DNA of 64,000 bases from Natronospirales bacterium (GTDB taxonomy: Bacteria > Pseudomonadota > Gammaproteobacteria > Natronospirales > JAIVGZ01): positions 1,764-65,763 of the forward strand of contig JAIVGZ010000004.1 of the NCBI GenBank assembly GCA_020201335.1. The letters are read 5' to 3'. The position numbers were made by a program, and so were the translations under genes. The notes below the pieces were generated by a model. That model ran no database searches. It worked only from the letters and a program-made list of their open reading frames with translations, and had not been told where the DNA came from. Shown here one piece after another: positions 1,416-62,787 of this stretch. The first letter of the stretch is position 1. Each line of letters begins with the position of its first letter.

Positions 1416-1990
1416 TGCCGGTACCACCGTTCGGACAGCGCGGACAGCACGCGGTCCGGGTACTCACGGCGGCCCGCGCTGCCGTTGTAACGTGCGAGCG
1501 CGTTCGTGAGTTCGCCGTTCTCACGGTCAAGGTAGTACTTGAGTATCGTGCAACCCATCCGCAGATTCAGCGCCGCATCGAATAGATTCGTGTGCTCGAC
1601 CTCGAGTTCGTCGAGCCAGAAGGACATGATTTGCATCAGCCCTTGCGCGCCCGCGCGTGATACAGCGAAGCGGTCGAAACCACTCTCAACTTCGATTACG
1701 GCGAGCACGAGTTCCGGCGGTAGCCCGGCTCGGCGCGCCTCGCGGTGTACGAGCCGCAGCAGTTCGATCCGGTGCGTCGTGTCGGCGACGCGCGGAGCCA
1801 GCCGTTGCGACATGTCGAGCAGCCACACCTCAGCGTCGAAACGGTCATTAAAACTGTCGCTCGCCGCAACCGCATCGGCCAATGCCGCGCGCAGCGCCGG
1901 GTCCGGTTCTACCGGCTGCGCGTGCACCGGCATCGTCGCGAACAACGCTATTAGCACCAGCGTGGGAGCGGTGCTCCGCACCGCGATCAA
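1412..1990 (-). CDS. Lytic transglycosylase (SLT domain), secreted
   Basis: [16 protein letters not shown] and ALARYNG motifs; signal peptide; TTG start overlaps the proS stop. Confidence 0.9.
1962..1987 (+). repeat. REP-like palindrome, family A (GTGGGAGCGGTGCTCCGCACCGCGAT), inside the slt 5' end
   Basis: GCGGTGC-TCC-GCACCGC hairpin; read as IAVRSTAPT in Slt. Confidence 0.9.
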
Positions 1991-3699
1991 TTTCCGCTTA
2001 GCTGCTGGGTGAGGAACTCAACCACATCACCCACTTTCACCATCACCGCCTCCGCATCCTGCCGGCCCTTGTACTCGACCGTGCCTGCGGCGAGGCCTTT
2101 CTCGCCGATGACGATGCGGTGGGGGATGCCGATGAGTTCCATCTCGGCGAACATCACGCCCGGCCGCGCGTCGCGGTCGTCGAGCAGCACCTCTATGCCC
2201 GCTGCGGCGAGCGCGTCGTGCAGGTCGGTTGCAGCGGCACGCACGGCATCAGATTTGTGCGCATTCATCGGCAGTACCGCGACCTGGAACGGTGCGATTG
2301 GGCCCGGCCAGACGATGCCGCGGTCATCGTGGTTCTGCTCGATTGCCGCAGCGACGATCCGTGAGACGCCGATGCCGTAACACCCCATCAGCATCGGCGT
2401 TTCGCCGCCATCCTCGGTAACGACGGTCGCGCCCATCGCGCTGCTGTAACCGGTTCCGAGCTGAAAGATGTGCCCGACCTCGATGCCGCGCGCGATGGAC
2501 AGCGTGCCGCGCCCATCGGGGCTCGGGTCGCCGTCGACGACACGCCGCAGGTCTGCGGTCTCGGCAAGTTCGACGTCCCGGCCCCAGTTCACACCGGTGT
2601 AATGGAAGCCGTCCGCGTTCGCGCCGCAGGTGAAGTCCGCGAGCGCGGCCGCAGCGCGATCGACAATCACACGGACCTTGAGCCCCACGGGCCCGAGCGA
2701 ACCCGGGCCGGCGCCGACGGCCTTCCGGATGCGCGCCTCGTCGGTGAAGGTGAGCGGTGCGGCGATACCGTCGAGCAGCTCTGCCTTCACGGTGTTGAGT
2801 TCGTGGTCGCCGCGCACGACCAGCGCCACCGGTGCGCCGTCATCGCCGTCGACCATCAGCGTCTTCACGCCCGCGGCTGCGGCTATGCCGAGCTTCGCGC
2901 ACAGGTCGTCCATGGTGCGTACGCCCGGCGTCGCGATCTTTTCGAGTTCGTGCGCTGCAGCCGGCGCGCCACCTGCCGGTGCAAGCGCTTCAGCCAGCTC
3001 GACGTTCGCTGCGTAATCGCTCGTGTCCGAAAATGCGATTGCGTCTTCACCGGAATCGGCAAGCACGTGGAACTCGTGTGAATGGCTGCCGCCAATCTCA
3101 CCCGTCGCGGCGCGCACTGCACGGAAGCGCAGACCTGCGCGTTCGAACACGCGCGCGTACGCGTCGTACATCCGGTCGTAGGTCTCCTGCAAAGATGCCT
3201 GCGAGTCGTGGAACGAATAGGCGTCCTTCATCAGGAACTCGCGCGCGCGCATCACGCCGAAGCGTGGGCGTATTTCGTCGCGGAACTTGGTCTGAATCTG
3301 GTAATAGGTTATGGGTAACTGCCGGTAGCTCTTCAACTCGCGGCGCGCGTAGTCGGTGATGACCTCTTCGTGCGTGGGCCCGAAGCAGTAGTCACGCTCG
3401 TGGCGGTCTTTCATGCGCAACAGCAGCGGGCCGTACTTGTCCCAGCGCCCGGTTTCCTGCCACAGCTCGGCCGGCTGCACGGCCGGCATCAGAAGCTCCA
3501 GCGCGCCGGCGCGGTCCATCTCCTCGCGCACGATTCGCTCGACCTTGCGCATCACCCTGAGGCCGAGGGGCAGCCAGGTGTACAGCCCGGCCGCGAGCTT
3601 GCGGATCAACCCGGCGCGCAGCATCAGCTGGTGGCTGACGATTTCGGCATCGGCGGGTGTCTCCTTGACGGTGTTCAACGGGAATCGGCTTGTGCGCAT
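1987..3699 (-). CDS. proS: Proline--tRNA ligase
   Basis: 570 aa; [32 protein letters not shown] and [10 protein letters not shown] motifs; editing insertion present. Confidence 0.98.
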
Positions 3700-3727
3700 C
3701 CGCGGATTCTAGCAACCTGTAGCGCTT

Positions 3728-4732
3728 ATGACACTTCGTTCCTGGACCGACAAAGATATTGCGCCCGGTGGCCTCGACGGGCTGTGTGTCGCGGTGTTCG
3801 GCTACGGCGCACAAGGACGCGCCCACGCGCTCAACCTGCGCGACTCCGGCGTCGAAGCCGTGGTCGCGTTGCGCGATGGCTCACCGCGAGGCGCGCGGGC
3901 CGCTGCGGACGGGATGACCGTGTGCGCACCGGCCGCCGCCGCACAGCGTGCGGACCTCGTGATGCTACTCGTACCTGATGACGCGCAACCTGCGCTGTAC
4001 GAAGAAGTACTCGAAGGTGCGATGAAGCCGCAGGCCGCTCTGGTGTTTGCGCACGGTTTCAACATCCACTATCGCCGCATCAGCCCGCGTGCCGACCTCG
4101 ATGTTCTGCTGGTAGCCCCGAAGGGGATTGGCGATCAGGTGCGCTCAACCTACGAGGCGGGCGCCGGCGTGCCGGGCCTTGTCGCAGTGCACCAGGACGC
4201 GAGCGGCGACGCACTCGCGCGCGCGCTCGCGTATGCCAGTGCGGTCGGGCACGGCCGTGCGGTGATACTCGGAACGACTTTCGCCGACGAGACCGAGACC
4301 GACCTGTTTGGCGAGCAGGCGGTGCTGTGCGGTGGGCTGACCGCGCTCGCGCAGGCCGGTTTCGATACGCTGGTCGAAGCCGGCTATCCACCGGAGCTCG
4401 CGTATTTCGAGTGCCTGCACGAGATCAAGTTAATCGCCGACCTGATGTACGCGCGCGGCATCGCCGGCATGCGTGAGTCAATCTCGACGACGGCGGCATA
4501 CGGCGACTGCACGCGCGGCCCGCGCATCATCGACGCCGCCACGCGGGACACGATGCGGGCAATCCTAGCTGAGATTCGCTCCGGGGCGTTCGCCTCCGAA
4601 CTCGCCGATGAGCTTGCCGCAGGGCGCCCGGCGCTGACCCGCGCACAGGCTGAGGCCCGGGCCGGCGCGCTGGAAACGGTTGGTCGCGGGCTCCGCCGGA
4701 AGATGCCTTTTATTGGTGATGAATCGGAGTAG
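3728..4732 (+). CDS. ilvC: Ketol-acid reductoisomerase
   Basis: GYGAQGRAHALNLRDSG, FAHGFNIH and ETETDLFGEQAVLCGG motifs. Confidence 0.96.
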   Translation: MTLRSWTDKDIAPGGLDGLCVAVFGYGAQGRAHALNLRDSGVEAVVALRDGSPRGARAAADGMTVCAPAAAAQRADLVMLLVPDDAQPALYEEVLEGAMKPQAALVFAHGFNIHYRRISPRADLDVLLVAPKGIGDQVRSTYEAGAGVPGLVAVHQDASGDALARALAYASAVGHGRAVILGTTFADETETDLFGEQAVLCGGLTALAQAGFDTLVEAGYPPELAYFECLHEIKLIADLMYARGIAGMRESISTTAAYGDCTRGPRIIDAATRDTMRAILAEIRSGAFASELADELAAGRPALTRAQAEARAGALETVGRGLRRKMPFIGDESE

Positions 4733-4767
4733 AATACGCGGCTTTTCACGCAGACCGGATTCGCTGA

Positions 4768-5361
4768 ATGCCCAGACAGACCCATCCAGGGCTCGCCCGC
4801 GAGGGCTGGCCCTTCATTACCGCGGCCGCGGTCGCGGGTGTCGTTGCATGGTTCATCAACCCCGAGTGGTCGGCGCCGTTCGTTGTCCTCGTCATCGTGT
4901 TCGCGATGAAGTTCCGGGACCCATCGCGGGAGGTGCCGCCGGAGCCGCTTGGAGTGGTCAGTCCGGTCGACGGCATCGTCGAGCTGGTCGAGACGACGCA
5001 GGATCCATGCCTCGGCCGCAACGCGATGCGCATACGCATCCGCATCGCGCGCTTCGGTGCATACAGCGCGCGCGCTCCAGTTGAAGGCAAGCTGTTGGAC
5101 TTCAAAGGCCAGCGCGGAATGCGGATCCAGACCGATGAGAAAGACGATGTCATCCTCATCCTCAACGAAGCACCGGCATTCGCACGCCCTCGCGCGCTGG
5201 TCGGCTATGGTTCGCGCGTCGGGCAGGGCCAGCGCTGCGCGGTGGTGCGTATGGCCCGCATCGCCGAGGTCTACCTGCCGGCGGGCGTACGCGTACAAGT
5301 GAAGCCGGGGCGCCGGGTGCTTGCGGGATCGGAGCTCTTGGCAACGCTAGTACACGATTAA
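4768..5361 (+). CDS. Phosphatidylserine decarboxylase-like protein with degenerate catalytic motifs
   Basis: REGWPFI, FRDPSR, SPVDG and RAPVEG motifs and a position upstream of pssA. It lacks HVNR and the FGS autocleavage motif. Confidence 0.75.
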   Translation: MPRQTHPGLAREGWPFITAAAVAGVVAWFINPEWSAPFVVLVIVFAMKFRDPSREVPPEPLGVVSPVDGIVELVETTQDPCLGRNAMRIRIRIARFGAYSARAPVEGKLLDFKGQRGMRIQTDEKDDVILILNEAPAFARPRALVGYGSRVGQGQRCAVVRMARIAEVYLPAGVRVQVKPGRRVLAGSELLATLVHD

Positions 5362-5391
5362 TCGCGGTTCTAAACCGGTATGATTGGGGGC

Positions 5392-6174
5392 ATGCAGAAC
5401 CCCGACGAACCTCAGGCGCAAGACGACACCGGCCCACGCCGCGCGATCTACCTGCTGCCGAACCTGTTCACCACCGCAGCGATGTTCGCCGGCTTCTTCG
5501 CGATCATCGCGGCGATGGGTGGGCGCTTCTCCAGTGCCGCAATCGCAATCATCATCGCCGGCGTCCTCGACGGGCTCGACGGGCGCATCGCCCGGATGAC
5601 CAACACGCAGAGCGATTTCGGCAAAGAATACGATTCGATGTCGGACCTCGTTTCGTTCGGACTCGCGCCCGCGCTCGTCATGTACCAGTGGGCACTCGAG
5701 GGCATGGCGTCGTACGGCTGGCTATGGTCGAAGGTCGGTTGGTTGGCCGCGTTCTTCTACGCGGTCTGCGCAGCGATGCGCCTCGCGCGCTTCAATACGC
5801 AGGCAGGCGTCGTCGACCGCCGCTACTTCGTCGGCCTCGCGAGCCCGGCCGCCGCCGGCTTGCTGGCGACCTTCGTCTGGGTCGGCCACGACTTCGGTTT
5901 CGAAGGCAGCGACCTTGTGATACCGGCCTTGTTGTTCACGGTGCTGGCCGGTGCGCTGATGGTCTCGCGCGTCAACTACTACAGCTTCAAGGACCTGAAC
6001 CTCGGCCAGCGCGTGTCGTTTCCGATGCTGATCCTCGTACCTCTGGTCTTCATCCTGATCGCGTTGAACCCGCCGAAAGTGCTGTTCCTGATGGGGTTCA
6101 GCTATGTGGCATCCGGTCCGGCGATTGAACTCTGGCGCATTTACCGGCGCCGCCGGAGCGCGGGCGCGGCGTAA
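5392..6174 (+). CDS. pssA: CDP-diacylglycerol--serine O-phosphatidyltransferase
   Basis: LLPNLFT and DGLDGRIAR...FGKEYDSMSDLVSFG CDP-alcohol motif; RLARFN. Confidence 0.95.
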   Translation: MQNPDEPQAQDDTGPRRAIYLLPNLFTTAAMFAGFFAIIAAMGGRFSSAAIAIIIAGVLDGLDGRIARMTNTQSDFGKEYDSMSDLVSFGLAPALVMYQWALEGMASYGWLWSKVGWLAAFFYAVCAAMRLARFNTQAGVVDRRYFVGLASPAAAGLLATFVWVGHDFGFEGSDLVIPALLFTVLAGALMVSRVNYYSFKDLNLGQRVSFPMLILVPLVFILIALNPPKVLFLMGFSYVASGPAIELWRIYRRRRSAGAA

Positions 6175-6177
6175 GGC

Positions 6178-6876
6178 ATGGACCCGGTCAGGAAGTTCTA
6201 CCTCGACGCGATGGACGTGCCGGTATATGTGCGGCGGGAGCACGCTGTGGAACCTGTCATTGCTGAGCCAGCGCCGACCATCGCGGTGCGGAGCACCGCT
6301 CCTACACCCTCGCCCGAGATCGGCTGGGAGGAATTGCAGCGCCTGGTCGCCGCGTGCACTGCGTGCGAACTCAGCACGATGCGCACGCAGACGGTGTTCG
6401 GCGTCGGTGACCCGGGCGCGCGTTGGATGGTGGTCGGCGAGGCGCCAGGCGCCGAGGAAGACGCCCGCGGTGAACCATTCGTCGGCCGCGCCGGGCAGCT
6501 GCTCAACGCGATGCTCGAATCGGCCGGCGCGCCGCGCGAGCGCGTATTCATCGCCAACACGCTGAAGTGTCGCCCACCGGGTAATCGTGACCCCGCGCCC
6601 GCAGAACTCGGAGCATGCCGCAGTTTCCTCGACCGGCAGATTGAGCTTGTGCAGCCTGAACTCATCCTCGTCGTCGGTCGCATCGCCGCGCAGGCGCTGC
6701 TCGATACCGATACCGCGATTGGCAAGCTGCGCGGCGTCGTGCACCGTTACGGCCCGCGGGAGATTCCGCTGGTCGCAACCTACCATCCGGCCTACCTGCT
6801 GCGTTCGCCGGGCCAGAAACGCCGCGCCTGGGATGACCTCAAGTTGGCGCTCGGCGTCGCCGCTCCCATCGCGTGA
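6178..6876 (+). CDS. Uracil-DNA glycosylase family 4 (Fe-S)
   Basis: [28 protein letters not shown] and YHPAYLLR motifs. Confidence 0.95.
6280..6305 (-). repeat. REP family A inside the UDG N-terminal linker
   Basis: ATCGCGGTGCGGAGCACCGCTCCTAC on +, read as IAVRSTAPT. Confidence 0.9.
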
Positions 6877-7132
6877 GCGCGCAGCGCGAGCCACTGCCGC
6901 CGCGCCTGCGGCCGATGCGAATCGCGGATGTCGATGCGGTAATGGCGGTCGAGAAGGCTGCGTACCCATTTCCGTGGACCGTCGGCATCTTCAGCGATTG
7001 CCTGCGCATTGGCTATTGCTGCTGGATTGCTGAAGACGCGGAAGGCGTCGCCGGCTATGCGGTGATGGCTGCAGGGCCCCGGCGGGGCGGGGCAAACGGG
7101 AAGACGCAATCGTATTGGCAAAAACCCTATAG
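6873..7132 (+). pseudogene. rimI: Ribosomal protein S18 acetyltransferase RimI, internally deleted and frameshifted
   Basis: N-terminus ([30 protein letters not shown]) is followed in another frame by the C-terminus ([20 protein letters not shown] 7130-7132). The acetyl-CoA-binding middle is absent. Confidence 0.85.
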
Positions 7133-7145
7133 AATCCGCGGCCTG

Positions 7146-8732: not shown

Positions 8733-8733
8733 T

Positions 8734-8818
8734 GTAGGAGCGGCCCCAATGTGGGAGCGGCCCTCTGGCCTGTGGGAGCGACCCTCTGGCCTGTGGGAGC
8801 GAATCTGTGATTCGCGAT
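8734..8818 (+). repeat. Head-to-tail array of REP-like units: three truncated family B copies then one full family C copy
   Basis: GTAGGAGCGGCCCC / GTGGGAGCGGCCCTCTGGCCT / GTGGGAGCGACCCTCTGGCCT / GTGGGAGCGAATCTGTGATTCGCGAT, between convergent genes. Confidence 0.85.
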
Positions 8819-8824
8819 TGACGC

Positions 8825-11754: not shown

Positions 11755-11761
11755 CGCGTGG

Positions 11762-34669: not shown

Positions 34670-37437
<2,768 letters not shown>

Positions 37438-38137: not shown

Positions 38138-39654
38138 GCCTGCTCGATCAGGTACTGCGTGAGCAACGACACCGGCCGGCCGAGCGCGCCTTTCTCAGTG
38201 CCGGACTTGTACGCGGTGCCGGCGATATCGAGGTGGGCCCAACGCATCTTCTCGGTGAAGCGCGACAGGAAAATCGCTGCGGTAATCGTGCCGGCCTCGC
38301 GCCCGCCGATGTTCGCCATGTCGGCAAAGTTCGACTTCAACTGCTCCTTGTAGTCGTCCCACAGCGGCAACCGCCACACGCGGTCACCGGTCTGCTGGCC
38401 GAGCGCGTACAGGCTGTCGGCGAGCTTGTCGTCGTTGGACATCAGGCCGGTGGCGTGGCTGCCGAGCGCGATGACGACAGCTCCGGTCAGCGTTGCGATG
38501 TCGATTACGGTCTTTGGCTTGTAGGTCCGCTCGGTGTAGGTCAGCGCGTCGCACAGGATCAGCCGGCCTTCGGCGTCGGTGTTCAGCACTTCGACCGTCA
38601 GGCCCGCCATCGTCGTGACGATGTCGCCCGGCTTGCTTGCGTCACCGTCGGGCATGTTCTCGCTCGACGGAACCACGCCGACACAGTTGACCTTCAGGCC
38701 GAGTTCGACAACCGCACGCATCGTGCCGAACACGCTCGCGCTGCCGCACATGTCGAACTTCATCTCGTCCATGCCGGGGCCGGGCTTCAGCGAAATGCCG
38801 CCGGTGTCGAAGGTCAGGCCCTTGCCGACCAGCGCGTGTGGCTTGTCACCTTTCTTCCCGCCCATCCACTCCATCACGATCAGCTTCGCCGGCTGACGGC
38901 TGCCGCGCGACACCGACAGCAGCGAGCCCATGCCGAGCCGCTTCATGTCGGCTTCTTCGAGAATCTTCACCTTGAGTTTCGGATACGCCTTTGCGAGCGC
39001 CTTCGCCTGGTTGGCGAGGTAGGTCGGTGTGCAGATGTTGCCGGGCAGGTTCGCGAGCTCGCGCGCCAGGTTCATGCCGTTGGAAACGGCGTTGCCGTGT
39101 TTCAGGCCTAGAGCGAAGCTCTTGTTATAATCGCGGTGCGGAGCACCGCTCCCACGCGGAGCACCGCTCCCACACTGAAGCAAGCCGACGCGTTTAAGTT
39201 TGCGCGGCTTCGCTTTCTCACTTTTCGTCGTCTCGTAGCGGTACAGCGCGAAGTTCACCGCTTCGGCTGTGTGGCGCGCGGCCCAGTACGGGTCAAGCGA
39301 CTTGCCGGCCAGGTCGTCGATCGCGAAGCACGCGTCCGCGGCGCCGAGTTCACCGAGCACCTGCGTAGCGCGGGTCATCGCCTTGCGGAAGACGAGCGGG
39401 TCGAACTTGTCCTGTTTGCCGAGCCCCACGAGCAGGATGCGCTCGGCGGCCACCCCGTCGAGACCTTGGAGCAGAAGTGTCTGGCACGGCTTGCCTTCGA
39501 TGTCGCCGCGCTTAATGAGGCGCGACAGCGCGTTGCCGCTCGCCGCGTCGATTTCGCTGCCCGTTGCGGTCAGCTTGTTGCCTTCGAAAAGGCCGATGAC
39601 CAAGCAGCCGGTCTTGATGCTCGACGGCTGGCCGGCCTTGAGGGATAGCTCCAT
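38134..39654 (-). CDS. pepA: Leucyl aminopeptidase (M17)
   Basis: VGKGLTFDTGGISLK, MKFDM, NTDAEGRL and WAHLDIAG motifs. Confidence 0.97.
   Translation of the reverse strand: MELSLKAGQPSSIKTGCLVIGLFEGNKLTATGSEIDAASGNALSRLIKRGDIEGKPCQTLLLQGLDGVAAERILLVGLGKQDKFDPLVFRKAMTRATQVLGELGAADACFAIDDLAGKSLDPYWAARHTAEAVNFALYRYETTKSEKAKPRKLKRVGLLQCGSGAPRGSGAPHRDYNKSFALGLKHGNAVSNGMNLARELANLPGNICTPTYLANQAKALAKAYPKLKVKILEEADMKRLGMGSLLSVSRGSRQPAKLIVMEWMGGKKGDKPHALVGKGLTFDTGGISLKPGPGMDEMKFDMCGSASVFGTMRAVVELGLKVNCVGVVPSSENMPDGDASKPGDIVTTMAGLTVEVLNTDAEGRLILCDALTYTERTYKPKTVIDIATLTGAVVIALGSHATGLMSNDDKLADSLYALGQQTGDRVWRLPLWDDYKEQLKSNFADMANIGGREAGTITAAIFLSRFTEKMRWAHLDIAGTAYKSGTEKGALGRPVSLLTQYLIEQA
39130..39173 (-). 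repeat. REP family A plus an 18-bp tandem duplication, in frame inside pepA
   Basis: GCGGAGCACCGCTCCCAC occurs twice; the protein reads [15 protein letters not shown]. Confidence 0.92.
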
Positions 39655-39721: not shown

Positions 39722-40619
39722 ATGCTTACGACGCTTGACCGGTACCTCCTGAAGGAGGTGATCCAGACTTGGGCCGCGGTCACCGTCGTCCTGTTGCTGA
39801 TCATGCTGTCCAGCCGGTTCGCCCGTTACCTCGGCGAGGCCGCGGCCGGACAGCTGCCTGCCGACGTCGTCTTCACGCTGCTGAGCCTGACCTCTATCCA
39901 TTACATGACGGTTCTGGTGCCGGTCAGCCTGTTCCTCGCGGTGATGCTCATGCTGGGTCGGCTGTACAAGGACAGTGAGATGGCGGCGATGATGGCCTGC
40001 GGCATCGGCTACGGACGATTCGCGGGTGTTCATCCACTACCGTGACCAGGAAGCGATGACGGTATCGCTCGCAGAGCGTGCTGAGCAGCGCACCGACCCC
40101 GTCACCGGCGTGCGCCACCTAGTGTTGCACGACGGCCGGCACTACAGCGGCGTACCGGGTTCCAACGAATACCGCGCGATTGAATTCTCCGAGCACGGCT
40201 TGCGTATCGAGCTGGGTGAAGGCGACGGGCTCGTGCCGCGCCGTACCGTGCAGCCGACGGGCGCGCTGTTCCGCTCCGACGACCTGGGCGACATAGCTGA
40301 ACTGCAGTGGCGCATATCGGTGCCGCTGATGGGTTTCCTGTTGGTGCTGCTTGCGGTTCCGCTCGGCCGGACCTCGCCGCGCCAGGGGCGCTACGGCAAG
40401 CTGTTCGCCGCGATCCTCGTGTATGTCGTGTACTCGAACCTGATCGGGTTGTCTCAGGTGTGGATTGAGCGCGGACAGTTGTCACCGTGGATCGGCGTCT
40501 GGTGGGTGCACGCGGCGGTATTGCTGCTAACCGCGGGGTTGGTGGTGAAGCATTACGGGTGGCGGTATTCGTTGAAGCGCGGTGCGGAGCACCGCTCCCA
40601 CACGGGAGCCACCGGGTGA
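39722..40619 (+). pseudogene. lptF: LPS export permease LptF, split by an apparent internal deletion and frameshift near 40015-40025
   Basis: N-part TLDRYLLKEV..GRLYKDSEM..GIG; C-part in another frame VFI..AELQWRIS..PRQGRY..GVWWVH. Roughly 60-70 aa short of a typical LptF. Probably an artefact. Confidence 0.85.
40578..40601 (-). repeat. REP family A inside the lptF 3' end
   Basis: CGCGGTGCGGAGCACCGCTCCCAC on +, read as RGAEHRSH. Confidence 0.88.
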
Positions 40620-45832: not shown

Positions 45833-45915
45833 ATCGCGGTGCGGAGCACCGCTCCTACATTGCTCCAGAGCGCTTGGTGTGACTCCGGATGTGGCAGCGG
45901 CCCTCTGGCCGCGAT
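45833..45915. repeat. Composite REP doublet: inverted family A, 32-bp spacer, family B
   Basis: The spacer at 45859-45890 is 26/32 identical to the spacer at 55557-55588. Confidence 0.85.
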
Positions 45916-53406: not shown

Positions 53407-53787
53407 ATGAACCTGACCCTGCTGAAATGCAAGCTCCACCGCGCCACGGTGACCCACGCCGAGCTCGATTACGAGGGCTCCTGCGCGATCGACGGCCGCT
53501 TGCTCGACGCCGCCGGCATCCTCGCCTACGAGCAGATTCAGATCTACAACATCACCAACGGCGAGCGCTTCACCACCTACGCGATCCGCGCGGAGGAAGG
53601 GTCCGGCATCATCTCGGTGAACGGTGCTGCTGCGCACAGGGCCAGCCCGGGCGACCGCGTCATTATCTGCGCTTACGCACAGTTGAACGCAGCCGAGGCT
53701 GCTAACTTCAAGCCGAAGCTCGTGTATTTGGACGAGCACAACAACGTCACGCACACCCGCAATACCATCCCGGTCCAGGTCGCCTGA
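53407..53787 (+). CDS. panD: Aspartate 1-decarboxylase
   Basis: [17 protein letters not shown] (pyruvoyl G-S site), NGERFTTY and NGAAA motifs. Confidence 0.97.
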
Positions 53788-53794
53788 GTACCGC

Positions 53795-55366
53795 ATGAGC
53801 GCACCGACCGCGCTTCCGGCCTGGAAGAAGCTGTCAGCGCACAAGGAACGCATCGGCGGCAGCGGCCTGCCGGGCCTCGTCGTCGATGAACCCGACCGCT
53901 TCAGCAAGTTCTCGGTCCGCGCCGATGGCATCCTCTACGACTACTCGCGGCAAAACATAGACTCCGAGGTGCTGGCGGACCTGCTCGCGCTCGCCGAGCA
54001 GCAGAATCTGCCCACATGGCGCGGCCGGCTGTACGGCGGCGACCCGGTAAACGTCACCGAGAAGCGCGCCGCCTTGCACATGGCGCTGCGCACGCAGCCC
54101 GGCGACCGCTGGGAAGTCGGCGGTGTGTCGGTGACCGAGGACGTGATCGCCGAGCGCATGCGCGCGTACGCATTTGCAGAGGCAATCCGAACTGGCGCGT
54201 TGCGGGGTTCAACGGGCGCGCGTTTCACCGATGTGGTGGAGCTCGGCATCGGCGGCTCGCACCTCGGGCCGGCGCTCGCGTGCGATGCACTCGCTGCGTT
54301 CAGCGACCACGCGACGCGCGTGCACTTTGTGTCGAACGCCGACGGCGCGGACCTCGCACGCACGCTCGCGCATTGCCGCCCGGAGGCGACGCTGTTCATC
54401 GCCGCGTCGAAGACCTTTACGACGCAGGAAACCCTGTTGAACGCGCGCACCGCGAGGGCGTGGCTTGAGTCTGCGTTGGGGGAAGGGCAGTTTGCGAAGC
54501 ACTTCGCCGCGGCGACCGCGGCGCCGGACCGTGCCGAGGCGTTCGGTATCCCGCGCGAGCACGTGTTCCGGCTGTGGGAGTGGGTCGGTGGCCGGTTCTC
54601 GCTATGGAGCGCGGTCGGCCTGCCCGCAATGGTCGCGCTGGGCCGGAAACATTTCGACGAGCTGCTCGCCGGCGCCCGCGACATCGACGTGCATTTCCGC
54701 GATGCGCCGCTGGCGGAAAATATTCCGGTGCTGATGGCGCTGGTCGGTATCTGGAACCGCAACTTCTGTGGCGCGACGAGTCACGCGATCCTGCCGTACG
54801 CTGAGGCGCTGTGGCTGCTGCCCACGTACCTGCAGCAGCTGGTGATGGAGAGCCTCGGCAAATGTGTCGACCGGGACAACGCGCACATAGACTACAAGGC
54901 GGCACCCGTCGTCTGGGGCATGCAGGGCACCAGCGGCCAGCACGCGTTCTACCAGCTGTTGCATCAAGGCTCCGACACGATTGGCGTCGACTTCATCGGT
55001 TACCGCGAAGCGATTGAGGGTGACCCGCAGCACCACCCGGTAGTGCTCGCAAACCTGGTCGCGCAGGCGGAGGCGCTGCTGGTCGGCAGCCAGAACCCGG
55101 ACGCGTACCGCAGTTGTGCGGGTGGGCGCGCGTCGTCGGTGCTGGTCTTCGACCGGCTCGACCCGCGCAACCTTGGCCGGCTGATTGCGCTGTACGAGCA
55201 CCAGGTGTTCGTGCAGTCGGTGATCTGGAACTTGAACGCGTTCGACCAGTGGGGCGTTGAGCTCGGCAAGCAGCTCGGCAAACCGCTGCTCACGGAGCTC
55301 ACCGGCGGTGAGCGCGCCGAACACGACCCGGCGACCGCGGGGCTGGTCGACTACCTGCTGAAGTAG
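53795..55366 (+). CDS. pgi: Glucose-6-phosphate isomerase
   Basis: GIGGSHLG, SKTFTTQET, VGGRFSLWS and FDQWGVELGK motifs. Confidence 0.97.
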   Translation: MSAPTALPAWKKLSAHKERIGGSGLPGLVVDEPDRFSKFSVRADGILYDYSRQNIDSEVLADLLALAEQQNLPTWRGRLYGGDPVNVTEKRAALHMALRTQPGDRWEVGGVSVTEDVIAERMRAYAFAEAIRTGALRGSTGARFTDVVELGIGGSHLGPALACDALAAFSDHATRVHFVSNADGADLARTLAHCRPEATLFIAASKTFTTQETLLNARTARAWLESALGEGQFAKHFAAATAAPDRAEAFGIPREHVFRLWEWVGGRFSLWSAVGLPAMVALGRKHFDELLAGARDIDVHFRDAPLAENIPVLMALVGIWNRNFCGATSHAILPYAEALWLLPTYLQQLVMESLGKCVDRDNAHIDYKAAPVVWGMQGTSGQHAFYQLLHQGSDTIGVDFIGYREAIEGDPQHHPVVLANLVAQAEALLVGSQNPDAYRSCAGGRASSVLVFDRLDPRNLGRLIALYEHQVFVQSVIWNLNAFDQWGVELGKQLGKPLLTELTGGERAEHDPATAGLVDYLLK

Positions 55367-55926
55367 GAGCGGTGCTCCGCACCGCGATGGCAGAGGTCTC
55401 AAGTGGCACCGCGCCCACCGCACCGCTCGCTCCTATGGGTTCACCGGCTTTTACAGAGCCGGCTGAAACCCATAAGTCGCTTCGCGCTTGCGCCGTTCGC
55501 TTCTGGCGCGATTCCTTGGACAGGTTGTGCCATCGCGGCCAGAGGGCCGCTCCCACATTTCTCCAGAGTGCTCGGCATGACTCCGAATGTAGGAGCGGCC
55601 CTCTGGCCGCGATGCTCGAGGGTCAGGTGCCGAATGTAGGAGCGGTGCTCCGCACCGCGATGGCAGAGATTCGATAGAACGCGCCGCCGGCAGGCGGCGT
55701 TGGAATGTCACGCCCGCCGTGCAGCGGCGAAGCGAATCAAAAATCGCATTTTTGATGAGCGTGGAGGCGCGCCGGCAGGCGTCGCCGACGAGAACAACAG
55801 CGGTGCTCCGCACCGCGATGGCAGAGATTCGATAGAACGCGCCGCCGGCAGGCGGCCATCCCGAAGTCGCGGATTACAGATCCGCTCCCACAAGTTCAAC
55901 AGGATGACCGCGCCGGCAGGCGCCGC
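55363..55926. repeat. Mosaic REP cluster between pgi and queG
   Basis: Family A at 55363, 55636 and 55799 (truncated); B-B doublet at 55532-55613; C variant at 55866-55891; ~58-bp direct repeat 55641-55698 / 55799-55856; extra hairpins at 55434-55474 and 55736-55756. Confidence 0.88.
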
Positions 55927-55930
55927 TGAC

Positions 55931-56968: not shown

Positions 56969-56986
56969 CAACCTATAATGCCGCAC

Positions 56987-58414
56987 ATGACTGCACTGTC
57001 CCAAGCCGCGTACCGGGCCGCCGACATCCGGGCGGTCGAGGCGCGTGCCGCCGAACGGTATGGGCTCGCCGGCACCGACCTCATGGAGCGCGCCGGCGAC
57101 GCAGCGTTCGCGCTGTTGCGCGCGCGCTGGCCGGACGCGCGCAGCGTCACCGTGCTCGCGGGGCCCGGCAACAACGGTGGCGACGGCCGCGTTGTTGCGA
57201 GGTTGGCCGCGATGGCCGGTTTTTCCGTAACACTTGTTGCGGCTGACTCAATCGCGGCCAGAGGGCCGCTCCCACAAGTACTTGGTGATGTCGACGTGAT
57301 TGTTGATGCGCTGTTCGGCATCGGCTTGAACCGCGCGCCGGACGGTGCAACTGCCAGCTGCATCGAGGCGATGAATGCACACCGCGCGCCGGTGCTTGCG
57401 CTCGACATCCCCTCGGGGTTGCACGCGGACGACGGCACCGCACCGGGTGCAGTCGTGTGCGCCGATGCGACGATTACTTTCCTTGCGGCGAAGCGCGGCC
57501 TGTTCACCGCGGACGGCCCGCGTTGCTGCGGACGCGTTATTGTCGCCGACTTGGGCGTGCCGGCCGGTGCGTTCGACGGCTGCACGCCGGTTGCGACGTT
57601 GGTGGAAACCGGTTTCGCCGCTCGCGCACTCGGCCCGCGTGCGACCGACGCGCATAAGGGCCGTTGCGGGCACGTGCTGGTGATCGGCGGGCGTTCCGGG
57701 ATGAGCGGTGCGGCGCGGCTCGCCGGTGAAGCCGCGCTGCGTTGCGGCGCGGGGCTCGTCAGCATCGCTGCGGCACCGGGCAGCGCCGCGGCAATCGGTG
57801 CCGGACGGCCGGAACTGATGGTGCACGAGTGCGCCAACGCCGACGCACTCGTACCTTTGCTCGAGCGTGCGTCGGTGATTGCGCTTGGCCCAGGTCTCGG
57901 TACCGACGCGTGGGCGCAGGCGATGACCGGCATCGCGTTCCGTGCCGGAGTACCAGTGGTGGTCGACGCTGACGCATTGAACCTGCTGGCGGCGAGTCCG
58001 TTCCGGCGCACGGACTGGATCCTCACGCCGCACCCCGGTGAGGCGGCGCGCCTGCTGGGCCGGCCCGTGCCGGAGCTAATGGCCGACCGTTTTGGCACGG
58101 TTGAAGCGCTGGTCGAGCGGACGGGCGGTGTCGTCGTGCTGAAAGGCGCGGCGACGATTGTAGGCGTCCCCGACTCGACGCCATACATCATCACCGCCGG
58201 CAACCCTGGCATGGCGAGCGGCGGCATGGGTGACTTATTGACCGGCGTAATCGCCGCACTCCGCGCGCAAGGCCTCGACGCTGCAACGGCCGCGTGCGCC
58301 GGCGCGCAAGTACACGCCGAGGCTGGTGACGCCGCAGCGGAGCGCTTTGGCGCACGCGGTATGGTTGCGAGCGATCTGTTTCGCGCGCTGCAGCGCGGGG
58401 TGAACGGGCGGTGA
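56987..58414 (+). CDS. nnr: Bifunctional NAD(P)H-hydrate epimerase/dehydratase
   Basis: LMERAG, GNNGGDG, DALFGIG, DIPSG, GPGLG, LTPHPGE and GGMGDLL motifs. Confidence 0.95.
   Translation: MTALSQAAYRAADIRAVEARAAERYGLAGTDLMERAGDAAFALLRARWPDARSVTVLAGPGNNGGDGRVVARLAAMAGFSVTLVAADSIAARGPLPQVLGDVDVIVDALFGIGLNRAPDGATASCIEAMNAHRAPVLALDIPSGLHADDGTAPGAVVCADATITFLAAKRGLFTADGPRCCGRVIVADLGVPAGAFDGCTPVATLVETGFAARALGPRATDAHKGRCGHVLVIGGRSGMSGAARLAGEAALRCGAGLVSIAAAPGSAAAIGAGRPELMVHECANADALVPLLERASVIALGPGLGTDAWAQAMTGIAFRAGVPVVVDADALNLLAASPFRRTDWILTPHPGEAARLLGRPVPELMADRFGTVEALVERTGGVVVLKGAATIVGVPDSTPYIITAGNPGMASGGMGDLLTGVIAALRAQGLDAATAACAGAQVHAEAGDAAAERFGARGMVASDLFRALQRGVNGR
57251..57275 (-). repeat. REP family B in frame inside nnr
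   Basis: ATCGCGGCCAGAGGGCCGCTCCCAC on +, identical to 55532-55556; read as IAARGPLP. Confidence 0.9.
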
Positions 58415-58869
58415 GCGCCGGGCGCGTGCTCGAGGACGCGGCCGCGACCGAAGCGGCCGGCGCGGCGTTGGCCACCTCGTTGTCCGGCCGCACCGGCGTT
58501 ATTGCGCTGCATGGTGAACTTGGCGCCGGCAAGACGACGCTGGTGCGTGGGCTGCTGCACGCGCTTGGGCACGCCGGTGCGGTGCGAAGCCCGACTTACA
58601 CGCTGGTTGAGCCTTATACGCTCGGCGGCATGCGCGTGCTGCACCTCGACCTGTACCGGCTGGCCGATGCCGCCGAGCTTGACGCGCTGGGGCTGCGCGA
58701 GGAGGTCGGCGATGCGCTGGTACTCGTCGAATGGCCGGAGCGCGCGGCACGCGCGCTGCCCGCTGCGGACCTCGACCTTGTGTTGAGCCACGACGGCGAG
58801 CGCCGCCGTCTGGCCGTACACGCCCACTCGCCGCTGGGCGAGGCCTGCGCTCAAGCCCTTGATAATTAA
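58411..58869 (+). CDS. tsaE: t6A biosynthesis ATPase TsaE
   Basis: GELGAGKTT, SPTYTLVE, HLDLYRL and VEWPE motifs. Confidence 0.96.
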   Translation: MSAGRVLEDAAATEAAGAALATSLSGRTGVIALHGELGAGKTTLVRGLLHALGHAGAVRSPTYTLVEPYTLGGMRVLHLDLYRLADAAELDALGLREEVGDALVLVEWPERAARALPAADLDLVLSHDGERRRLAVHAHSPLGEACAQALDN

Positions 58870-59006
58870 TGAATAATCTAGTGTTTGCTCTCCTGTGAGT
58901 CTGCAATAGCTTGTCCTGCCAAGCCACGGATAAATAAACGAAATTCTTGATTTATCCGTAATCCCGTGTATACCTATAACGGCGAAGTAACGGGAGAGGC
59001 ACCCAA

Positions 59007-60317: not shown

Positions 60318-60333
60318 CTGGTAAACTCGCTGG

Positions 60334-61919
60334 ATGCCCATCCAGCGCCTGTCGCCCCAGCTCATCAACCAGATCGCGGCCGGCGAGGTCGTCGAACGCC
60401 CCGCATCCGTATTGAAAGAACTGGTCGAGAACGCGCTCGATGCGGGCGCGACCTCGATTGAGGTCGATGCCGAGCAGGGTGGCGTGCGCCGGCTGCTGGT
60501 GCGGGACGACGGCGGCGGCATCGCCGCCGATGAACTCGCGCTCGCGGTCGCCCCACACGCGACCAGCAAGATCGCGTCGCTCGACGAACTGGAACGCGTC
60601 GCGACGCTTGGCTTTCGTGGTGAAGCGCTCGCGTCGATTGGGGCGATCGCGCGCCTGTCGCTGACCAGCAGCGTTTCTGCTGACGGGGCGGGGGTGCGCA
60701 TTGAGGGTGACGGCGGCGGTGAGTGGAGCGAACCGGCGCCGGCGGCGCACCGCCGCGGCACGACCGTCGAGGTGCGCGACTTGTTCTTCAATGTGCCGGC
60801 CCGGCGCAAATTCCTGCGTACCGAGAAGACGGAGTACGGTCACCTTGAGACGGTGTTCCTGCGCGCCGCGCTGTCGCGCTTCGGCGTCGCGTTCCGGCTG
60901 ACGCATAACGGACGCCTGGTGCACGCGCTGCCAGTCGCCGACACGCGCGAAGCGCGCGAACGGCGGATTGCCGCGCTGTGCGGCGACGGTTTCGTCGAAC
61001 AGGCGTTGTTCGTCGAGCACGAAGCGGCGGGGCTCAAGCTGTATGGCTGGATCGCGCAGCCGACCTACTCGCGTGCCCAGGCGGACCTGCAGCACTTCTT
61101 CACCAACGGCCGCATGATCCGGGACCGGCTGGTCGCCCACGCAGTACGCCAGGCGTTCCACGACGTAATGTTCCACGGGCGCCACCCCGCGTATGTGCTG
61201 TACCTCGAGCTGGATCCGGCGCTCGTCGATGTCAACGCGCACCCGCAGAAACACGAAGTGCGTTTCCGTGATTCGCGGCTTGTGCACGATTTCCTGTATC
61301 GCACGATTGCGCAAATCATCAATGCGCAGCGGGCGGGGAGCGGGCTATCGACGGCGTACAAACCTGACAATATCGCGGTGCGGAGCACCGCTCCCACACT
61401 GGAGCAAGCTGCACTCGGTTTCGCCGTGCAGGACCGCACCGCGATTGCAAGCGAACATACCGCGCGTGCGGCAGCCCCGCTCGACGATGCATCGCCGGTA
61501 CCACCCCTCGGCTACGCAATCGCGCAACTGCATGGTGTGTACATCCTCGCAGCCGACGATGCGGGCTTGGTCTTGGTCGACATGCACGCGGCGCATGAGC
61601 GTATCGGCTATGAGCGGCTGAAGCGCGAATGGGCGGAGGGTGGCGTTGCGTCGCAACCGCTGCTCGTGCCGCTGCGCGTGCCGGTGACGCCTGCGGAAGC
61701 CGCGGCCGTCGAGGACGCGCAGACGACGCTCGCCGGGCTCGGGCTGGAGCTTGAGCGGGGTGGGCCGGATTCCGTCACGGTGCGCGCTGCGCCGATGCCC
61801 CTCGCCGACGGCGATCTTGAAGGACTCGTGCGTGACCTTGCCGGAGACCTTGTTGAGCGTGGGCGCAGCACGCGGGTAGAAAACCGCGTGCACGAATTGT
61901 TTGCGAACATGGCCTGCCA
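60334..61919 (+). CDS. mutL: DNA mismatch repair protein MutL, C-terminus missing, fused in frame to miaA
   Basis: [19 protein letters not shown] and DMHAAHER endonuclease motif; sequence breaks off at MAC. Confidence 0.92.
61372..61397 (-). repeat. REP family A in frame in the MutL interdomain linker
   Basis: Read as IAVRSTAPT. Confidence 0.9.
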
Positions 61920-62787
61920 GTACCGCGGCATGGACATCGGCACCGCGAAGCCGGCGACGCCGCACCGGCTCGTCGATATACTCGACCCGAGTGAGCGCTA
62001 CTCGGCGCAGCGTTTCCGTGATGACGCGCTGCGCGAGATTGCGCACATCGTTGCGGCCGGCCGCACGCCGCTCCTGGTCGGCGGCACGATGCTTTATTTC
62101 CGTGCACTGTTCCGCGGTCTGTCTGACCTGCCTGCTGCGGACCCCGCGGTGCGCGCCGGCATCGACGCGCGCGCGCGAGTAGCTGGTTGGCCGGCGTTGC
62201 ACGCGGAACTCGCGCGTGTCGACCCTGCGGCCGCCGAGCGCATCCACCCGAACGACCCGCAGCGGATCCAGCGGGCATTGGAGGTTTGGGAGATTACTGG
62301 GAAGCCGATTAGTGAGTTGCAAAATAGGAATCGCGAATCACAGATTCGCTCCCACAAAGAGATTGGTTTCCACAAAGAGATTGGTTTCCACAAAGAGATT
62401 GGTTCCCACAAAGAAATTGGTTCCCACAAGTTCTTTAAGATTGCGGTTGCGCCTGCCGACCGCGCGGAGCTGCACCGCCGCATCGAGCAGCGCTTCAACA
62501 CGATGCTGGAAGCGGGCTTCGTTGACGAGGTGCGCCGTCTGCGTGCACGCGGTGACCTCGACCCGGACCTGCCTGCCATACGCACGGTTGGCTATCGGCA
62601 GGTATGGCGCCACCTCGAGGGTGCGTGCGACCTCGACGAGGCGGTTCGCACCGCGATCCACGCGACACGGCAGCTTGCGAAGCGCCAGCTCACCTGGTTG
62701 CGCAAGGAGCCCGACCTGCAGTGGCTGGACCCTACGGAACCCGGCTGGTTGCACGCCGGCGAGCAGTGGGCGCGCGTGGCATTGTGA
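61920..62787 (+). CDS. miaA: tRNA dimethylallyltransferase MiaA, N-terminal P-loop missing
   Basis: [31 protein letters not shown] and [11 protein letters not shown] motifs; GPTASGKT is absent. Confidence 0.92.
62330..62430. repeat. REP family C followed by an in-frame 18-bp tandem repeat inside miaA
   Basis: ATCGCGAATCACAGATTCGCTCCCAC, then four GARATTGGTTYCCACAAR units; the protein reads [30 protein letters not shown]. Confidence 0.92.

What the first reader, a model, noticed from the sequence alone, without database searches (positions are those of the whole stretch)
1962..62430. REP-like palindromes systematically inserted in frame into housekeeping proteins ('coding REPs')
Seen: about 21 copies of three related elements share a GT(A/G)G-GAGCG foot, a hairpin and a CGCGAT tail. 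A = GTRGGAGCGGTGCTCCGCACCGCGAT, B = GTRGGAGCGGCCCTCTGGCCGCGAT, C = GTGGGAGCGAATCTGTGATTCGCGAT. Eight copies lie inside genes without breaking the frame at that point: slt 1962, udg 6280, valS 35327, pepA 39130, lptF 40578, nnr 57251, mutL 61372 and miaA 62330. Family A is read in three different frames ([26 protein letters not shown]). The GTGG form of A has no stop codon in any of the six frames, and 7 of the 8 coding copies are GTGG, whereas the three full intergenic or stop-overlapping A copies are GTAG. Established: GTAG/GTGG-footed REPs are substrates of RAYT/TnpA(REP) HUH nucleases and are described as extragenic. In-frame palindrome insertion into proteins is known mainly from the much longer Rickettsia palindromic elements. 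Inference: this lineage has a REP system that writes ~9-aa peptides into linkers and loops of core enzymes at high density. No RAYT gene is present in this window.
Basis: partly seen in the sequence, partly recalled or inferred. Interest (0 to 1): 0.88.

Follow-up and report, generated by a model that had tools for sequence, protein, structure and literature searches.

The report
REP palindromes translated inside housekeeping genes
Short mobile DNA hairpins (REPs) that normally lie between genes sit in frame inside about two dozen core enzyme genes of this soil bacterium, adding small tolerated loops; this is real, but the same kind of thing was described in other bacteria in 2013.

Summary
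The GTRGGAGCG foot occurs 20 times in the window (1.65 expected) and 377 times in the 1.83-Mb genome. REPs lie in frame inside udg, valS, pepA, nnr, mutL and miaA. The slt copy overlaps the gene's 5' end and probably supplies its GTG start. The lptF copy lies upstream of the conserved start and is not coding.

Genome-wide, 28 of 233 hairpin-bearing REP clusters (12%) sit inside Pfam-confirmed housekeeping genes, mostly between domains. Random positions pass the same coding test 75% of the time. REPs are therefore depleted in genes and filtered by selection, not aimed at them.

All 24 out-of-genus valS orthologs lack the insert. Congeners carry their own REP variants at 8 of 12 homologous sites, often in another frame or orientation. 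Two RAYT genes flanked by REPs exist elsewhere in the genome. The GTGG-versus-GTAG contrast is not significant genome-wide (p=0.16).

Intragenic GTAG REPs, including some in tRNA synthetases, were reported by Di Nocera et al. 2013 (PMC3733652). This is a new, dense member of a known kind.

The parts
1962..1987 (+). REP A (GTGG) between the proS stop and slt. On the minus strand its tail base is the A of the proS TGA. Its GTG (1981-1979) aligns with the ATG of congeners' slt, so it probably supplies the start codon and the first ~8 codons of the signal peptide.
6280..6306 (-). REP A (GTAG), read as IAVRSTAPT in the linker between the N-terminal [10 protein letters not shown] motif and the UDG domain of a family-4-type uracil-DNA glycosylase.
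35327..35353 (-). REP A (GTGG). 27 nt make exactly nine codons (CGSGAPHRD) in a helix-helix loop of the ValRS anticodon-binding domain.
39130..39174 (-). One truncated 18-nt A unit plus one full A unit, read as [15 protein letters not shown] between the N-terminal and catalytic domains of PepA.
40576..40602 (-). REP A variant (tail CGCGCT) upstream of the conserved lptF start. Non-coding.
57251..57276 (-). REP B (GTGG), read as IAARGPLPQ inside the YjeF_N half of Nnr.
61372..61398 (-). REP A (GTGG), read as IAVRSTAPT in the MutL linker between DNA_mis_repair and MutL_C.
62330..62429 (-). Full REP C plus four 18-nt truncated C-like units (GTGGRAACCAATYTCTTT). 99 nt = 33 aa inside the IPPT domain of MiaA.
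8734..8818 (+). Intergenic polar array starting one base after the prfC stop: three truncated units (17, 21 and 21 nt) followed by one full REP C.
55363..55388 (+). REP A (GTAG) whose TAG (55364-55366) is the stop codon of pgi.
55532..55661 (.). Intergenic REPs: B (-) 55532-55556, B (+) 55589-55613 (head-to-head with a 32-nt spacer) and A (+) 55636-55661.
45833..45858 (-). Intergenic REP A (GTAG) just after the stop of ORF 44459-45832.
1117..1142 (+). Intergenic REP C variant (tail CGCGAA).
55866..55891 (-). Intergenic REP C-like variant (GCGGATC..GATCCGC stem, tail GAC).

Best explanation
These are genuine GT(A/G)G-footed REP elements: T + GTRGGA + a 6-7 bp stem + a 3-4 nt loop + GAT. Families A and C are 27 nt and family B is 26 nt. 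They belong to a REP/RAYT system.

In this genus they occur mostly as single units or as polar tandem arrays, not as inverted REPIN doublets. The GTGG forms of A and B have no stop in any of the six frames; C has one, in frame F0. A minority of copies have landed inside genes. The copies that persist keep the reading frame and sit in surface loops or inter-domain linkers, where 6-33 extra residues are tolerated. They are translated as part of the host protein.

Shown: the elements, their copy number, the RAYT genes flanked by REPs, in-frame continuity within Pfam-confirmed genes, absence of the inserts from out-of-genus orthologs, presence/absence and family, frame and orientation differences among congeners, and enrichment between domains.

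Inferred: that RAYT (a single-strand HUH/Y1 nuclease) spreads them; that selection, not targeting, explains their placement; and that the proteins remain functional and the peptides are really made.
For: Copy number: 20 feet in the window against 1.65 expected. 377 feet in the genome. 312 fuzzy 27-mer matches against 3 for the reversed control.

Hairpins: DNA folds of -6.5 to -8.9 kcal/mol with an unpaired 7-nt foot.

RAYT: two genes score above the NCBIfam REP_Tyr_transpos cut-off (108.9 and 132.7 bits against 80). They carry HIH and Y-x3-NP motifs and are flanked by family C and family B REPs.

Coding copies: 28 of 233 hairpin-bearing clusters pass a two-flank same-frame coding test and lie in proteins with Pfam domains, plus one cluster made only of a truncated unit. 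The genes are ileS, cysS, valS, carA, argC, nuoG, E1 and E2 of a 2-oxoacid dehydrogenase, priA, dprA, glnD, icmF and others.

Placement: 21 of 29 clusters lie outside or between Pfam stretches, against 33% of residues (p=1.7e-5). In an AlphaFold model (mean pLDDT 77.8) the valS peptide sits in a loop between helices 664-691 and 701-726, with pLDDT below 50 at residues 696-700. pepA has 12 extra residues at the REP relative to PDB 8pz0.

Lineage specificity: the valS insert is absent in 24 of 24 out-of-genus orthologs that cover the site and in congener G004. G003 has two REPs of its own stem type there.

Congeners: 8 of 12 sites examined carry a foot-plus-hairpin REP in at least one congener, and each of those 8 also has at least one congener without a recognisable REP there.

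Independent data: contigs from four soil metagenome runs (one study) of a ~92%-identical relative bridge the nnr site with 101 other letters in place of 83, a difference of 18 nt that keeps the frame.

Second genome: in a 400-kb sample of G003, 5 of 36 clusters pass the test and 2 are Pfam-confirmed (an SDR and DnaE2).

Outgroup: in G021 the same foot forms tail-to-tail doublets with AT-rich spacers, and 17 of 18 fail the coding test.
Against: - No expression, proteomic or enzymatic evidence exists. No RNA run was available.
Contigs of the related strain break at the mutL and miaA REPs.
- The assembly is a 77-contig, 84.75%-complete draft with at least one odd junction (mutL-miaA).
- No RAYT flanked by family A REPs was found.
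- My coding test is home-made: a codon log-odds score over 40 codons on each side. In G003, 3 of 5 passes were not Pfam-confirmed; 2 look spurious by eye and the third looks ImuB-like.
- The domain-boundary enrichment is partly circular, because a REP can itself end an HMM match.
- Family B (26 nt) is not depleted in genes relative to the 27-nt A and C (9 of 60 against 15 of 113 and 5 of 68). Frame preservation is therefore not a simple property of unit length, and the real inserted unit is unknown.
Confidence: 0.85

Rival explanations
1. Re-occupation of old REP sites (homing or replacement). New REP copies are inserted preferentially into or next to existing REP remnants, or replace them by conversion. 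The same protein loops then stay REP-occupied across species while family, frame and orientation change.
For: - 8 of 12 own coding sites are REP-occupied in at least one congener. Those copies have that species' own stem (GCGGCGC..GCGCCGC in G001, G003, G004; B in G002) and often another frame or orientation.
- 48 of 62 same-orientation clusters are polar: truncated 5' units followed by one full unit. This fits repeated events at the foot of an existing REP.
- Coding copies are as pristine as intergenic ones: 30 of 37 have at most 1 mismatch, against 181 of 275.
- In zapE and valS, a congener without a REP at the site has CGCGA(T/C) where the REP tail sits.
Against: - Shared sites could simply be the few permissive loops hit independently.
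- No species tree was built, so gains and losses are not polarised.
- The miaA site is occupied only in this genome. At the biotin carboxylase site the only congener signal is a degenerate A-like peptide in G002.
- Flanks are about 25% diverged, so exact insertion boundaries cannot be read.
Confidence: 0.3
2. Exaptation. The intragenic REPs are kept because they do something, for example an mRNA hairpin that slows ribosomes at domain boundaries, an RNase barrier, or a useful flexible linker.
For: - Enrichment between Pfam domains (21 of 29).
- Stable RNA hairpins of -8.6 to -13.2 kcal/mol for single units and -27 kcal/mol for the pepA double unit.
- Copies are near-consensus.
Against: - The same pattern is expected from tolerance alone.
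- Presence or absence varies among congeners for every site examined.
- Peptides differ by frame and orientation at the same site.
- Di Nocera et al. argue that insertion in unrelated proteins speaks against functional constraint (passage).
Confidence: 0.1
3. Assembly artefact. REP reads were wrongly threaded into genes of a metagenome-assembled genome.
For: The assembly is a draft MAG. One scaffold gap creates a false pntB-priA ORF. The mutL-miaA junction lacks about 391 nt relative to G003. Contigs of a related strain break at REPs.
Against: - Four other assemblies of the genus show in-frame REPs at homologous sites.
- Every insert keeps the frame and lacks stops.
- Independent contigs bridge the nnr site with an in-frame length variant.
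Confidence: 0.03

Closest known systems
Intragenic GTAG- and CGTC-tagged REPs (Di Nocera, De Gregorio, Rocco 2013, BMC Genomics 14:522, PMC3733652; abstract, section 15 and passages read)
   Same: - Short GT(A/G)G-footed hairpins lying entirely within ORFs of known proteins and read as amino acids.
- Single units and grouped units both occur.
- tRNA synthetases and DNA repair/replication genes are among the hosts.
- N-terminal cases are often really extragenic.
- The GTAG supplies stop codons to flanking ORFs.
- GTGG predominates in the species with the most intragenic copies (O. terrae).
- REPs sit at about the same site in recB of two Xanthomonas species.
   Different: - This is another, uncultured lineage with a small genome.
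- Here I add congener comparisons showing turnover of family, frame and orientation at the same loops, the polar truncated-unit arrays, and a start codon donated to slt.
- Their per-genome counts (Figure 7A, Additional file 3) were not visible to me, so I cannot say whether the density here exceeds theirs.
REP/REPIN-RAYT systems of Pseudomonas and E. coli (Nunvar 2010; Bertels and Rainey 2011, PMC3116915 and PMC3337134, abstracts seen in listing; Quentin et al. 2018, PMC6006769, passages read)
   Same: - 5' GT[AG]G guide tetranucleotide at the hairpin foot.
- RAYT genes with HUH and Y-x3-NP motifs, flanked by REPs.
- Hundreds of copies, mostly extragenic.
   Different: REPINs are inverted doublets. 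Here inverted neighbours are few (29, against 145 same-orientation neighbours within 200 nt), and about 12% of clusters are coding.
Rickettsia palindromic elements (Ogata et al. 2000, Science 290:347; recalled, and cited as refs 13 and 14 in PMC3733652)
   Same: Palindromic repeats inserted in frame into housekeeping proteins at surface-compatible sites, with the proteins apparently functional.
   Different: RPE-1 is about 100-150 bp (recalled) and has no known transposase. The elements here are 26-27 nt, carry a GTAG-type foot and have cognate RAYT genes.
IS200/IS605 TnpA single-strand transposition (as summarised in PMC6006769)
   Same: Y1 HUH enzyme, subterminal hairpin and a tetranucleotide guide. 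This is the likely chemistry for REP spread.
   Different: The elements here carry no transposase, and mobility was not shown.

Membership tests
GTAG-type REP | Conserved GT[AG]G tetranucleotide unpaired at the 5' foot of a short hairpin | tested here: met
   GTRGGA unpaired, stem starts at GCG. T at position -1 in 95% of 246 full units.
GTAG-type REP | Short palindrome (stem 5-13 bp, loop 2-20 nt, per Table 1 of PMC3733652) | tested here: met
   Stem/loop of 7/3 in 184 units and 6/4 in 61 units.
GTAG-type REP | Tens to hundreds of copies per genome | tested here: met
   377 feet against 99 for the backward control. 312 fuzzy 27-mers against 3 for the control.
GTAG-type REP | Predominantly extragenic | tested here: met
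   203 of 233 hairpin-bearing clusters fail the coding test and 2 are ambiguous. 75% of random positions pass it.
GTAG-type REP | Cognate RAYT gene flanked by the same REPs (REPtron) | tested here: met
   The RAYT on C63 is flanked by inverted family C REPs. The RAYT on C56 has family B REPs on both sides. Both score above the NF047646 cut-off. No RAYT was found for family A (genome 84.75% complete).
REPIN (inverted REP doublet) | Two REPs in inverted orientation with a short spacer as the main form | tested here: not met
   29 inverted against 145 same-orientation neighbour pairs within 200 nt. Only 9 head-to-head pairs have a 31-32 nt spacer. The outgroup G021 does show doublets.
RAYT (REP-associated tyrosine transposase) | HUH motif and catalytic Y followed by x3-NP; score above the family cut-off | tested here: met
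   HIH and Y-V-A-N-N-P / Y-V-V-A-N-P were read in the translations. Scores 108.9 and 132.7 bits against a cut-off of 80.
RAYT-driven mobility of these REPs | Cleavage and joining of REP single strands by the RAYT; new insertions | not testable with these tools
   Only indirect evidence: near-identical copies and presence/absence among congeners.
Intragenic REP sensu Di Nocera 2013 | REP wholly inside an ORF of at least 120 aa that encodes a recognisable protein, not at a doubtful N-terminus | tested here: met
   Met for 6 window genes and 20 further genes. Not met for lptF. slt is a 5'-end case.
Rickettsia palindromic element (RPE) | Element of about 100-150 bp, restricted to Rickettsiales | tested here: not met
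   Units here are 26-27 nt in a gammaproteobacterium-like genome. RPE size is recalled.

The most novel reading that the evidence does not exclude
In this genus the REP has left the doublet (REPIN) format and become a single 26-27-nt module that can be translated. The GTGG forms of A and B are stop-free in all six frames, and A and C are exactly nine codons long. Such modules repeatedly re-occupy the same protein loops across species, by RAYT-guided insertion at the foot of earlier copies or by replacing them. If so, this would be a natural, site-recurrent peptide-insertion process in essential enzymes, with polar 'stutter' arrays as its footprint.
Probability: 0.2. Interest if true: 0.7.

Novelty: new member of a known kind. 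Interest (0 to 1): 0.45.

Why it matters
- It shows, with congener comparisons, that RAYT-type REPs can be carried in frame by roughly 1-2% of the genes of a small free-living genome. That includes aminoacyl-tRNA synthetases and respiratory and repair enzymes, so 'extragenic' is not a safe assumption when masking or annotating REPs.
- The decorated sites mark permissive loops and linkers.
- The shared-site turnover and the polar arrays give a concrete handle on how single REPs, usually regarded as immobile remnants of REPINs, multiply.
- For annotation: REP peptides such as [18 protein letters not shown] and VGAAPSRRD inside conserved proteins are not frameshift artefacts. REP copies near 5' ends should prompt a check of the start codon.

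Tried and rejected
- A simple greedy gene caller over-called: 94.6% coding, and queG was missed. I replaced it with a local two-flank frame test.
- About ten 'coding' foot matches without a hairpin (W-E-R motifs) and FolE2 GAHNQRSH are chance matches and were dropped. Three passing ORFs had no Pfam family (L034, L045, L048). Of these, two hairpin-bearing clusters were set aside as ambiguous.
- In the frame table the udg copy was scored on the wrong strand. Corrected usage is F0 4, F1 6, F2 0, R0 10, R1 7, R2 3.
- 'In frame because the unit is 27 nt' is rejected, because the 26-nt family B is not depleted in genes.
- GTGG enrichment in genes is not significant.
- The pntB-priA fusion is a run of N.
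- Insertions in the valS editing domain of other families of the order are not REPs.
- The look-up of sequencing runs listed no RNA holder. It listed four DNA runs of one soil study with small shares (0.07-0.08).
- Read laying used contigs only. They belong to a ~92% relative, not to this genome. There was little cover over 61451-61924, and contigs end at REPs.
- Supplements of PMC3733652 (Additional file 3, the list of intragenic REPs) and its Figure 7A were not visible. They bear directly on whether the density here is unusual.
- The intragenic fraction in Pseudomonas or Stenotrophomonas was not computed, because no whole genome of theirs could be laid. An in-order outgroup (G021, 18 doublets) was used instead. 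Its single pass (L258) was not checked further.
- Literature searches for later descriptions found no paper beyond PMC3733652 and the review PMC3184786 that treats intragenic REPs of this type. RepRanger 2025 (PMC12306157, passages read) defines REPs as seldom overlapping coding regions.

Full report
**What is there**

The 9-nt foot GTRGGAGCG occurs 20 times in the window against 1.65 expected; no shuffle of 100 reached 20. It occurs 377 times in the window's own assembly. That assembly is 1.83 Mb in 77 contigs, 84.75% complete and 64.7% G+C.

Most feet are followed by one of three hairpins:
- family A: GCGGTGC-TCC-GCACCGC
- family B: GCGGCC-CTCT-GGCCGC
- family C: GCGAATC-TGT-GATTCGC

Each hairpin is followed by a GAT tail. 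259 of the 377 units have a perfect hairpin. The other 118 are truncated.

The base before the foot is T in 95% of 246 full units. The unit is therefore T-GTRGGA-stem-loop-stem-GAT, which is 27 nt for A and C and 26 nt for B. As single-stranded DNA the units fold with the 7-nt foot unpaired, at -6.5 to -8.9 kcal/mol.

A fuzzy scan with the three 27-mers finds 312 copies with at most 6 mismatches, against 3 for the reversed control.

**Arrangement**

Neighbouring units within 200 nt are mostly in the same orientation (145 pairs). Only 29 pairs are inverted, and only nine of those are head-to-head with a 31-32-nt spacer.

Same-orientation clusters are polar. 48 of 62 consist of one to five truncated 5' units of 17-21 nt followed by a single full REP at the 3' end. 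The reverse order was seen once.

**The transposase**

The window has no RAYT, but the genome has three Y1_Tnp matches.
- Two are small proteins (158 and 175 aa). They score 108.9 and 132.7 bits on NCBIfam REP_Tyr_transpos (cut-off 80) and carry HIH and Y-x3-NP motifs. One is flanked by inverted family C REPs and the other has family B REPs on both sides.
- The third is below the cut-off. It is fused to a DnaA-C-like helix-turn-helix and is not flanked by REPs.
- No RAYT flanked by family A was found.

**The eight genes of the finding**

Translations, Pfam and orthologs give the following.

| Gene | Window position | What the REP is read as | Status |
|---|---|---|---|
| valS | 35327-35353 | 27 nt, exactly nine codons, CGSGAPHRD | internal, coding |
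| pepA | 39130-39174 | 18-nt truncated unit plus full unit, [15 protein letters not shown] | internal, coding |
| udg | 6280-6306 | IAVRSTAPT | internal, coding |
| nnr | 57251-57276 | IAARGPLPQ | internal, coding |
| mutL | 61372-61398 | IAVRSTAPT | internal, coding |
| miaA | 62330-62429 | full C unit plus four 18-nt C-like units, 33 aa | internal, coding |
| slt | 1962-1987 | start codon and first ~8 codons (probable) | 5' end only |
| lptF | 40576-40601 | none | non-coding |

- valS. The insert sits inside the Anticodon_1 domain, between the conserved KP and RGTR. It is absent from all 24 out-of-genus orthologs that cover the site and from congener G004. G003 has two REPs of its own stem type there, and G002 has a degenerate remnant. 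In an AlphaFold model (22-sequence alignment, mean pLDDT 77.8) the peptide lies in the loop between helices 664-691 and 701-726, with pLDDT below 50 at 696-700.
- pepA. The insert lies between Peptidase_M17_N and Peptidase_M17. It is 12 residues longer than PDB 8pz0 at that point. G003 and G001 have a REP there in another frame (VGAA[SP]SRRD), and G004 has none.
- udg. The insert lies in the linker before the UDG domain. Congeners carry 0 (G002), 1 (G004), 2 (G001) or 3 (G003) REP peptides there, in the opposite orientation.
- nnr. The insert splits YjeF_N. G001 has a REP at the site; G003 and G002 do not. Contigs of a ~92%-identical relative in four soil metagenome runs of one study bridge the site with 101 other letters in place of 83, an in-frame difference of 18 nt.
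- mutL. The insert lies in the linker between DNA_mis_repair and MutL_C. G002 has a family B cluster there.
- miaA. The insert is 99 nt inside the IPPT domain and is absent from all congeners.
- slt. The REP fills the gap between the proS stop and the signal peptide. Its GTG aligns with the ATG of four congeners (M-R-S-...), so the REP probably supplies the start codon and about eight codons. This is an inference.
- lptF. The REP lies upstream of the conserved start, and the ORF extension is not conserved.

**Genome-wide**

I scored each REP cluster for an uninterrupted frame with a positive codon log-odds score in the 40 codons on both sides. 75% of 3000 random positions pass this test.
- Of 233 clusters with a full hairpin (stem of at least 6 bp), 28 pass and lie in proteins with Pfam families. 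Two are ambiguous.
- With one cluster made only of a truncated unit (in nuoG), this gives 29 clusters in 26 genes.
- The 20 genes outside the window are sufD, ileS, cysS, a GluQ-RS-like gene, carA, argC, an M20 peptidase, E1 and E2 of a 2-oxoacid dehydrogenase, nuoG, a P-type ATPase, priA, dprA, a DinG-like helicase, glnD, comF, icmF, zapE, an amidohydrolase and a biotin carboxylase subunit. The other six are the window genes listed above.
- 21 of the 29 clusters lie outside or between Pfam-matched stretches, which hold 33% of the residues (binomial p=1.7e-5). The caveat is that a REP can itself end an HMM match.
- Coding copies are at least as close to consensus as the others: 30 of 37 have at most 1 mismatch, against 181 of 275.
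- All frames except F2 are used here. Corrected counts are F0 4, F1 6, F2 0, R0 10, R1 7, R2 3. F2 is used by G003 in zapE.
- GTGG:GTAG is 22:8 in coding copies against 127:87 elsewhere, p=0.16.

**Relatives**

The foot is enriched mainly in the genus. Counts with the backward control in brackets are: own 377 (99), G003 368 (122), G004 249 (149), G002 233 (105), G001 140 (67). Most other families of the order are at or below the control; genus g3 is moderately enriched, e.g. G006 221 (116).

Of 12 own coding sites compared with the four congeners, 8 carry a foot-plus-hairpin REP in at least one congener. Each of those 8 also has at least one congener without a recognisable REP there.

In a 400-kb sample of G003, 5 of 36 clusters pass the test. 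Two are Pfam-confirmed (a short-chain dehydrogenase and DnaE2), one looks like ImuB but has no Pfam match, and two look spurious.

In G021, from another family of the order, the same foot forms tail-to-tail doublets with AT-rich, stop-rich spacers. 17 of 18 fail the coding test.

**How it most likely works**

The elements are ordinary GTAG-type REPs spread by their RAYTs. The RAYT role is inferred by analogy with IS200/IS605 TnpA and E. coli TnpA-REP, as summarised in PMC6006769.

In this genus the prevailing form is a single short unit that lacks stops in most or all frames. An insertion in a gene is therefore not automatically lethal. Selection removes copies that shift the frame or hit structured regions, and leaves those in loops and linkers.

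The sixfold depletion relative to random positions shows that genes are not a preferred target. Two things remain open:
- Re-occupation of the same loops in different species, with different family, frame or orientation, may reflect either few permissive sites or insertion at earlier REP remnants.
- The polar arrays hint at a directional copying event at the foot.

**What is known already**

Di Nocera et al. 2013 (PMC3733652; abstract, section 15 and passages read) report the following:
- intragenic GTAG and CGTC REPs in several species, most numerous in Opitutus terrae, whose elements are mostly GTGG, and in Rickettsia conorii;
- hosts that include tRNA synthetases, uvrA, recB and dnaE2;
- N-terminal cases that are probably extragenic;
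- GTAG feet that supply stop codons.

Both of the last two points recur here, in lptF and in the pgi stop at 55364-55366. Their counts were not visible to me.

The review PMC3184786 (passages read) also notes repeats fused in frame with ORFs. Three full-text searches found no later treatment of intragenic REPs of this type.

**Verdict**

The feature is real and well supported. It is a new and fairly dense member of a known kind.

Noticed in passing
window 61903-61925 (ORF 60334-62787): mutL runs in frame into miaA (...ELFANMAC|[12 protein letters not shown]...). About 391 nt present in G003 are missing: the last ~50 codons of mutL and the first ~45 of miaA, including its P-loop. There is no N at the junction. 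Contigs of a ~92% relative carry an intact miaA N-terminus before 61921. This is either a real deletion, which would predict a mismatch-repair-deficient lineage, or a misassembly.
   Followed up: partly
G000 contig C45, about 21240-21265 (locus L042): An apparent PntB-PriA fusion ORF is created by a run of N (a scaffold gap or masked stretch). It is an artefact.
   Followed up: yes
window 55363-55366 and 1987-1989: The TAG of a GTAG foot is the stop codon of pgi. The tail base of the slt REP is the A of the proS TGA. REPs abut or share bases with stop codons.
   Followed up: partly
genome-wide; window 8734-8818, 39130-39174, 62330-62429: Tandem REP clusters are polar. 48 of 62 are truncated 5' units (17-21 nt; 18 and 21 nt are commonest) followed by one full unit. 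The reverse order was seen once. This suggests a directional copying or rejoining event at the foot.
   Followed up: partly
L002 (G000 C64:22451-25777), ORF 1138-2376: A 413-aa open frame has a Y1_Tnp/RAYT-like core (56.6 bits, below the cut-off of 80) fused to a DnaA C-terminal-like helix-turn-helix. It is not flanked by REPs.
   Followed up: no
L237 (G003 C8:400001-420000) 4117-8580: In congener G003, DnaE2 carries an in-frame REP cluster (NRDAESVAPTESVAPT). The adjacent ORF, which looks ImuB-like but has no Pfam match, carries one in the F2 frame (PWERRSWRRD). The error-prone polymerase cassette is REP-decorated, as Di Nocera et al. noted for dnaE2 elsewhere.
   Followed up: partly
L242-L259 (G021): A relative from another family of the order has the same GTAGGAGCG foot in canonical tail-to-tail doublets (~56 nt between the two outer ends), with AT-rich spacers and two different stems per doublet. 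One of 18 (L258) passes the coding test and was not examined further.
   Followed up: partly
window 6873-7150: The prfC ORF extends upstream through about 90 codons that begin like a RimI-type acetyltransferase fragment, with no stop before the prfC start (MTTLPPE...). This is possibly a truncated rimI or an unresolved start. It was not checked against relatives.
   Followed up: no
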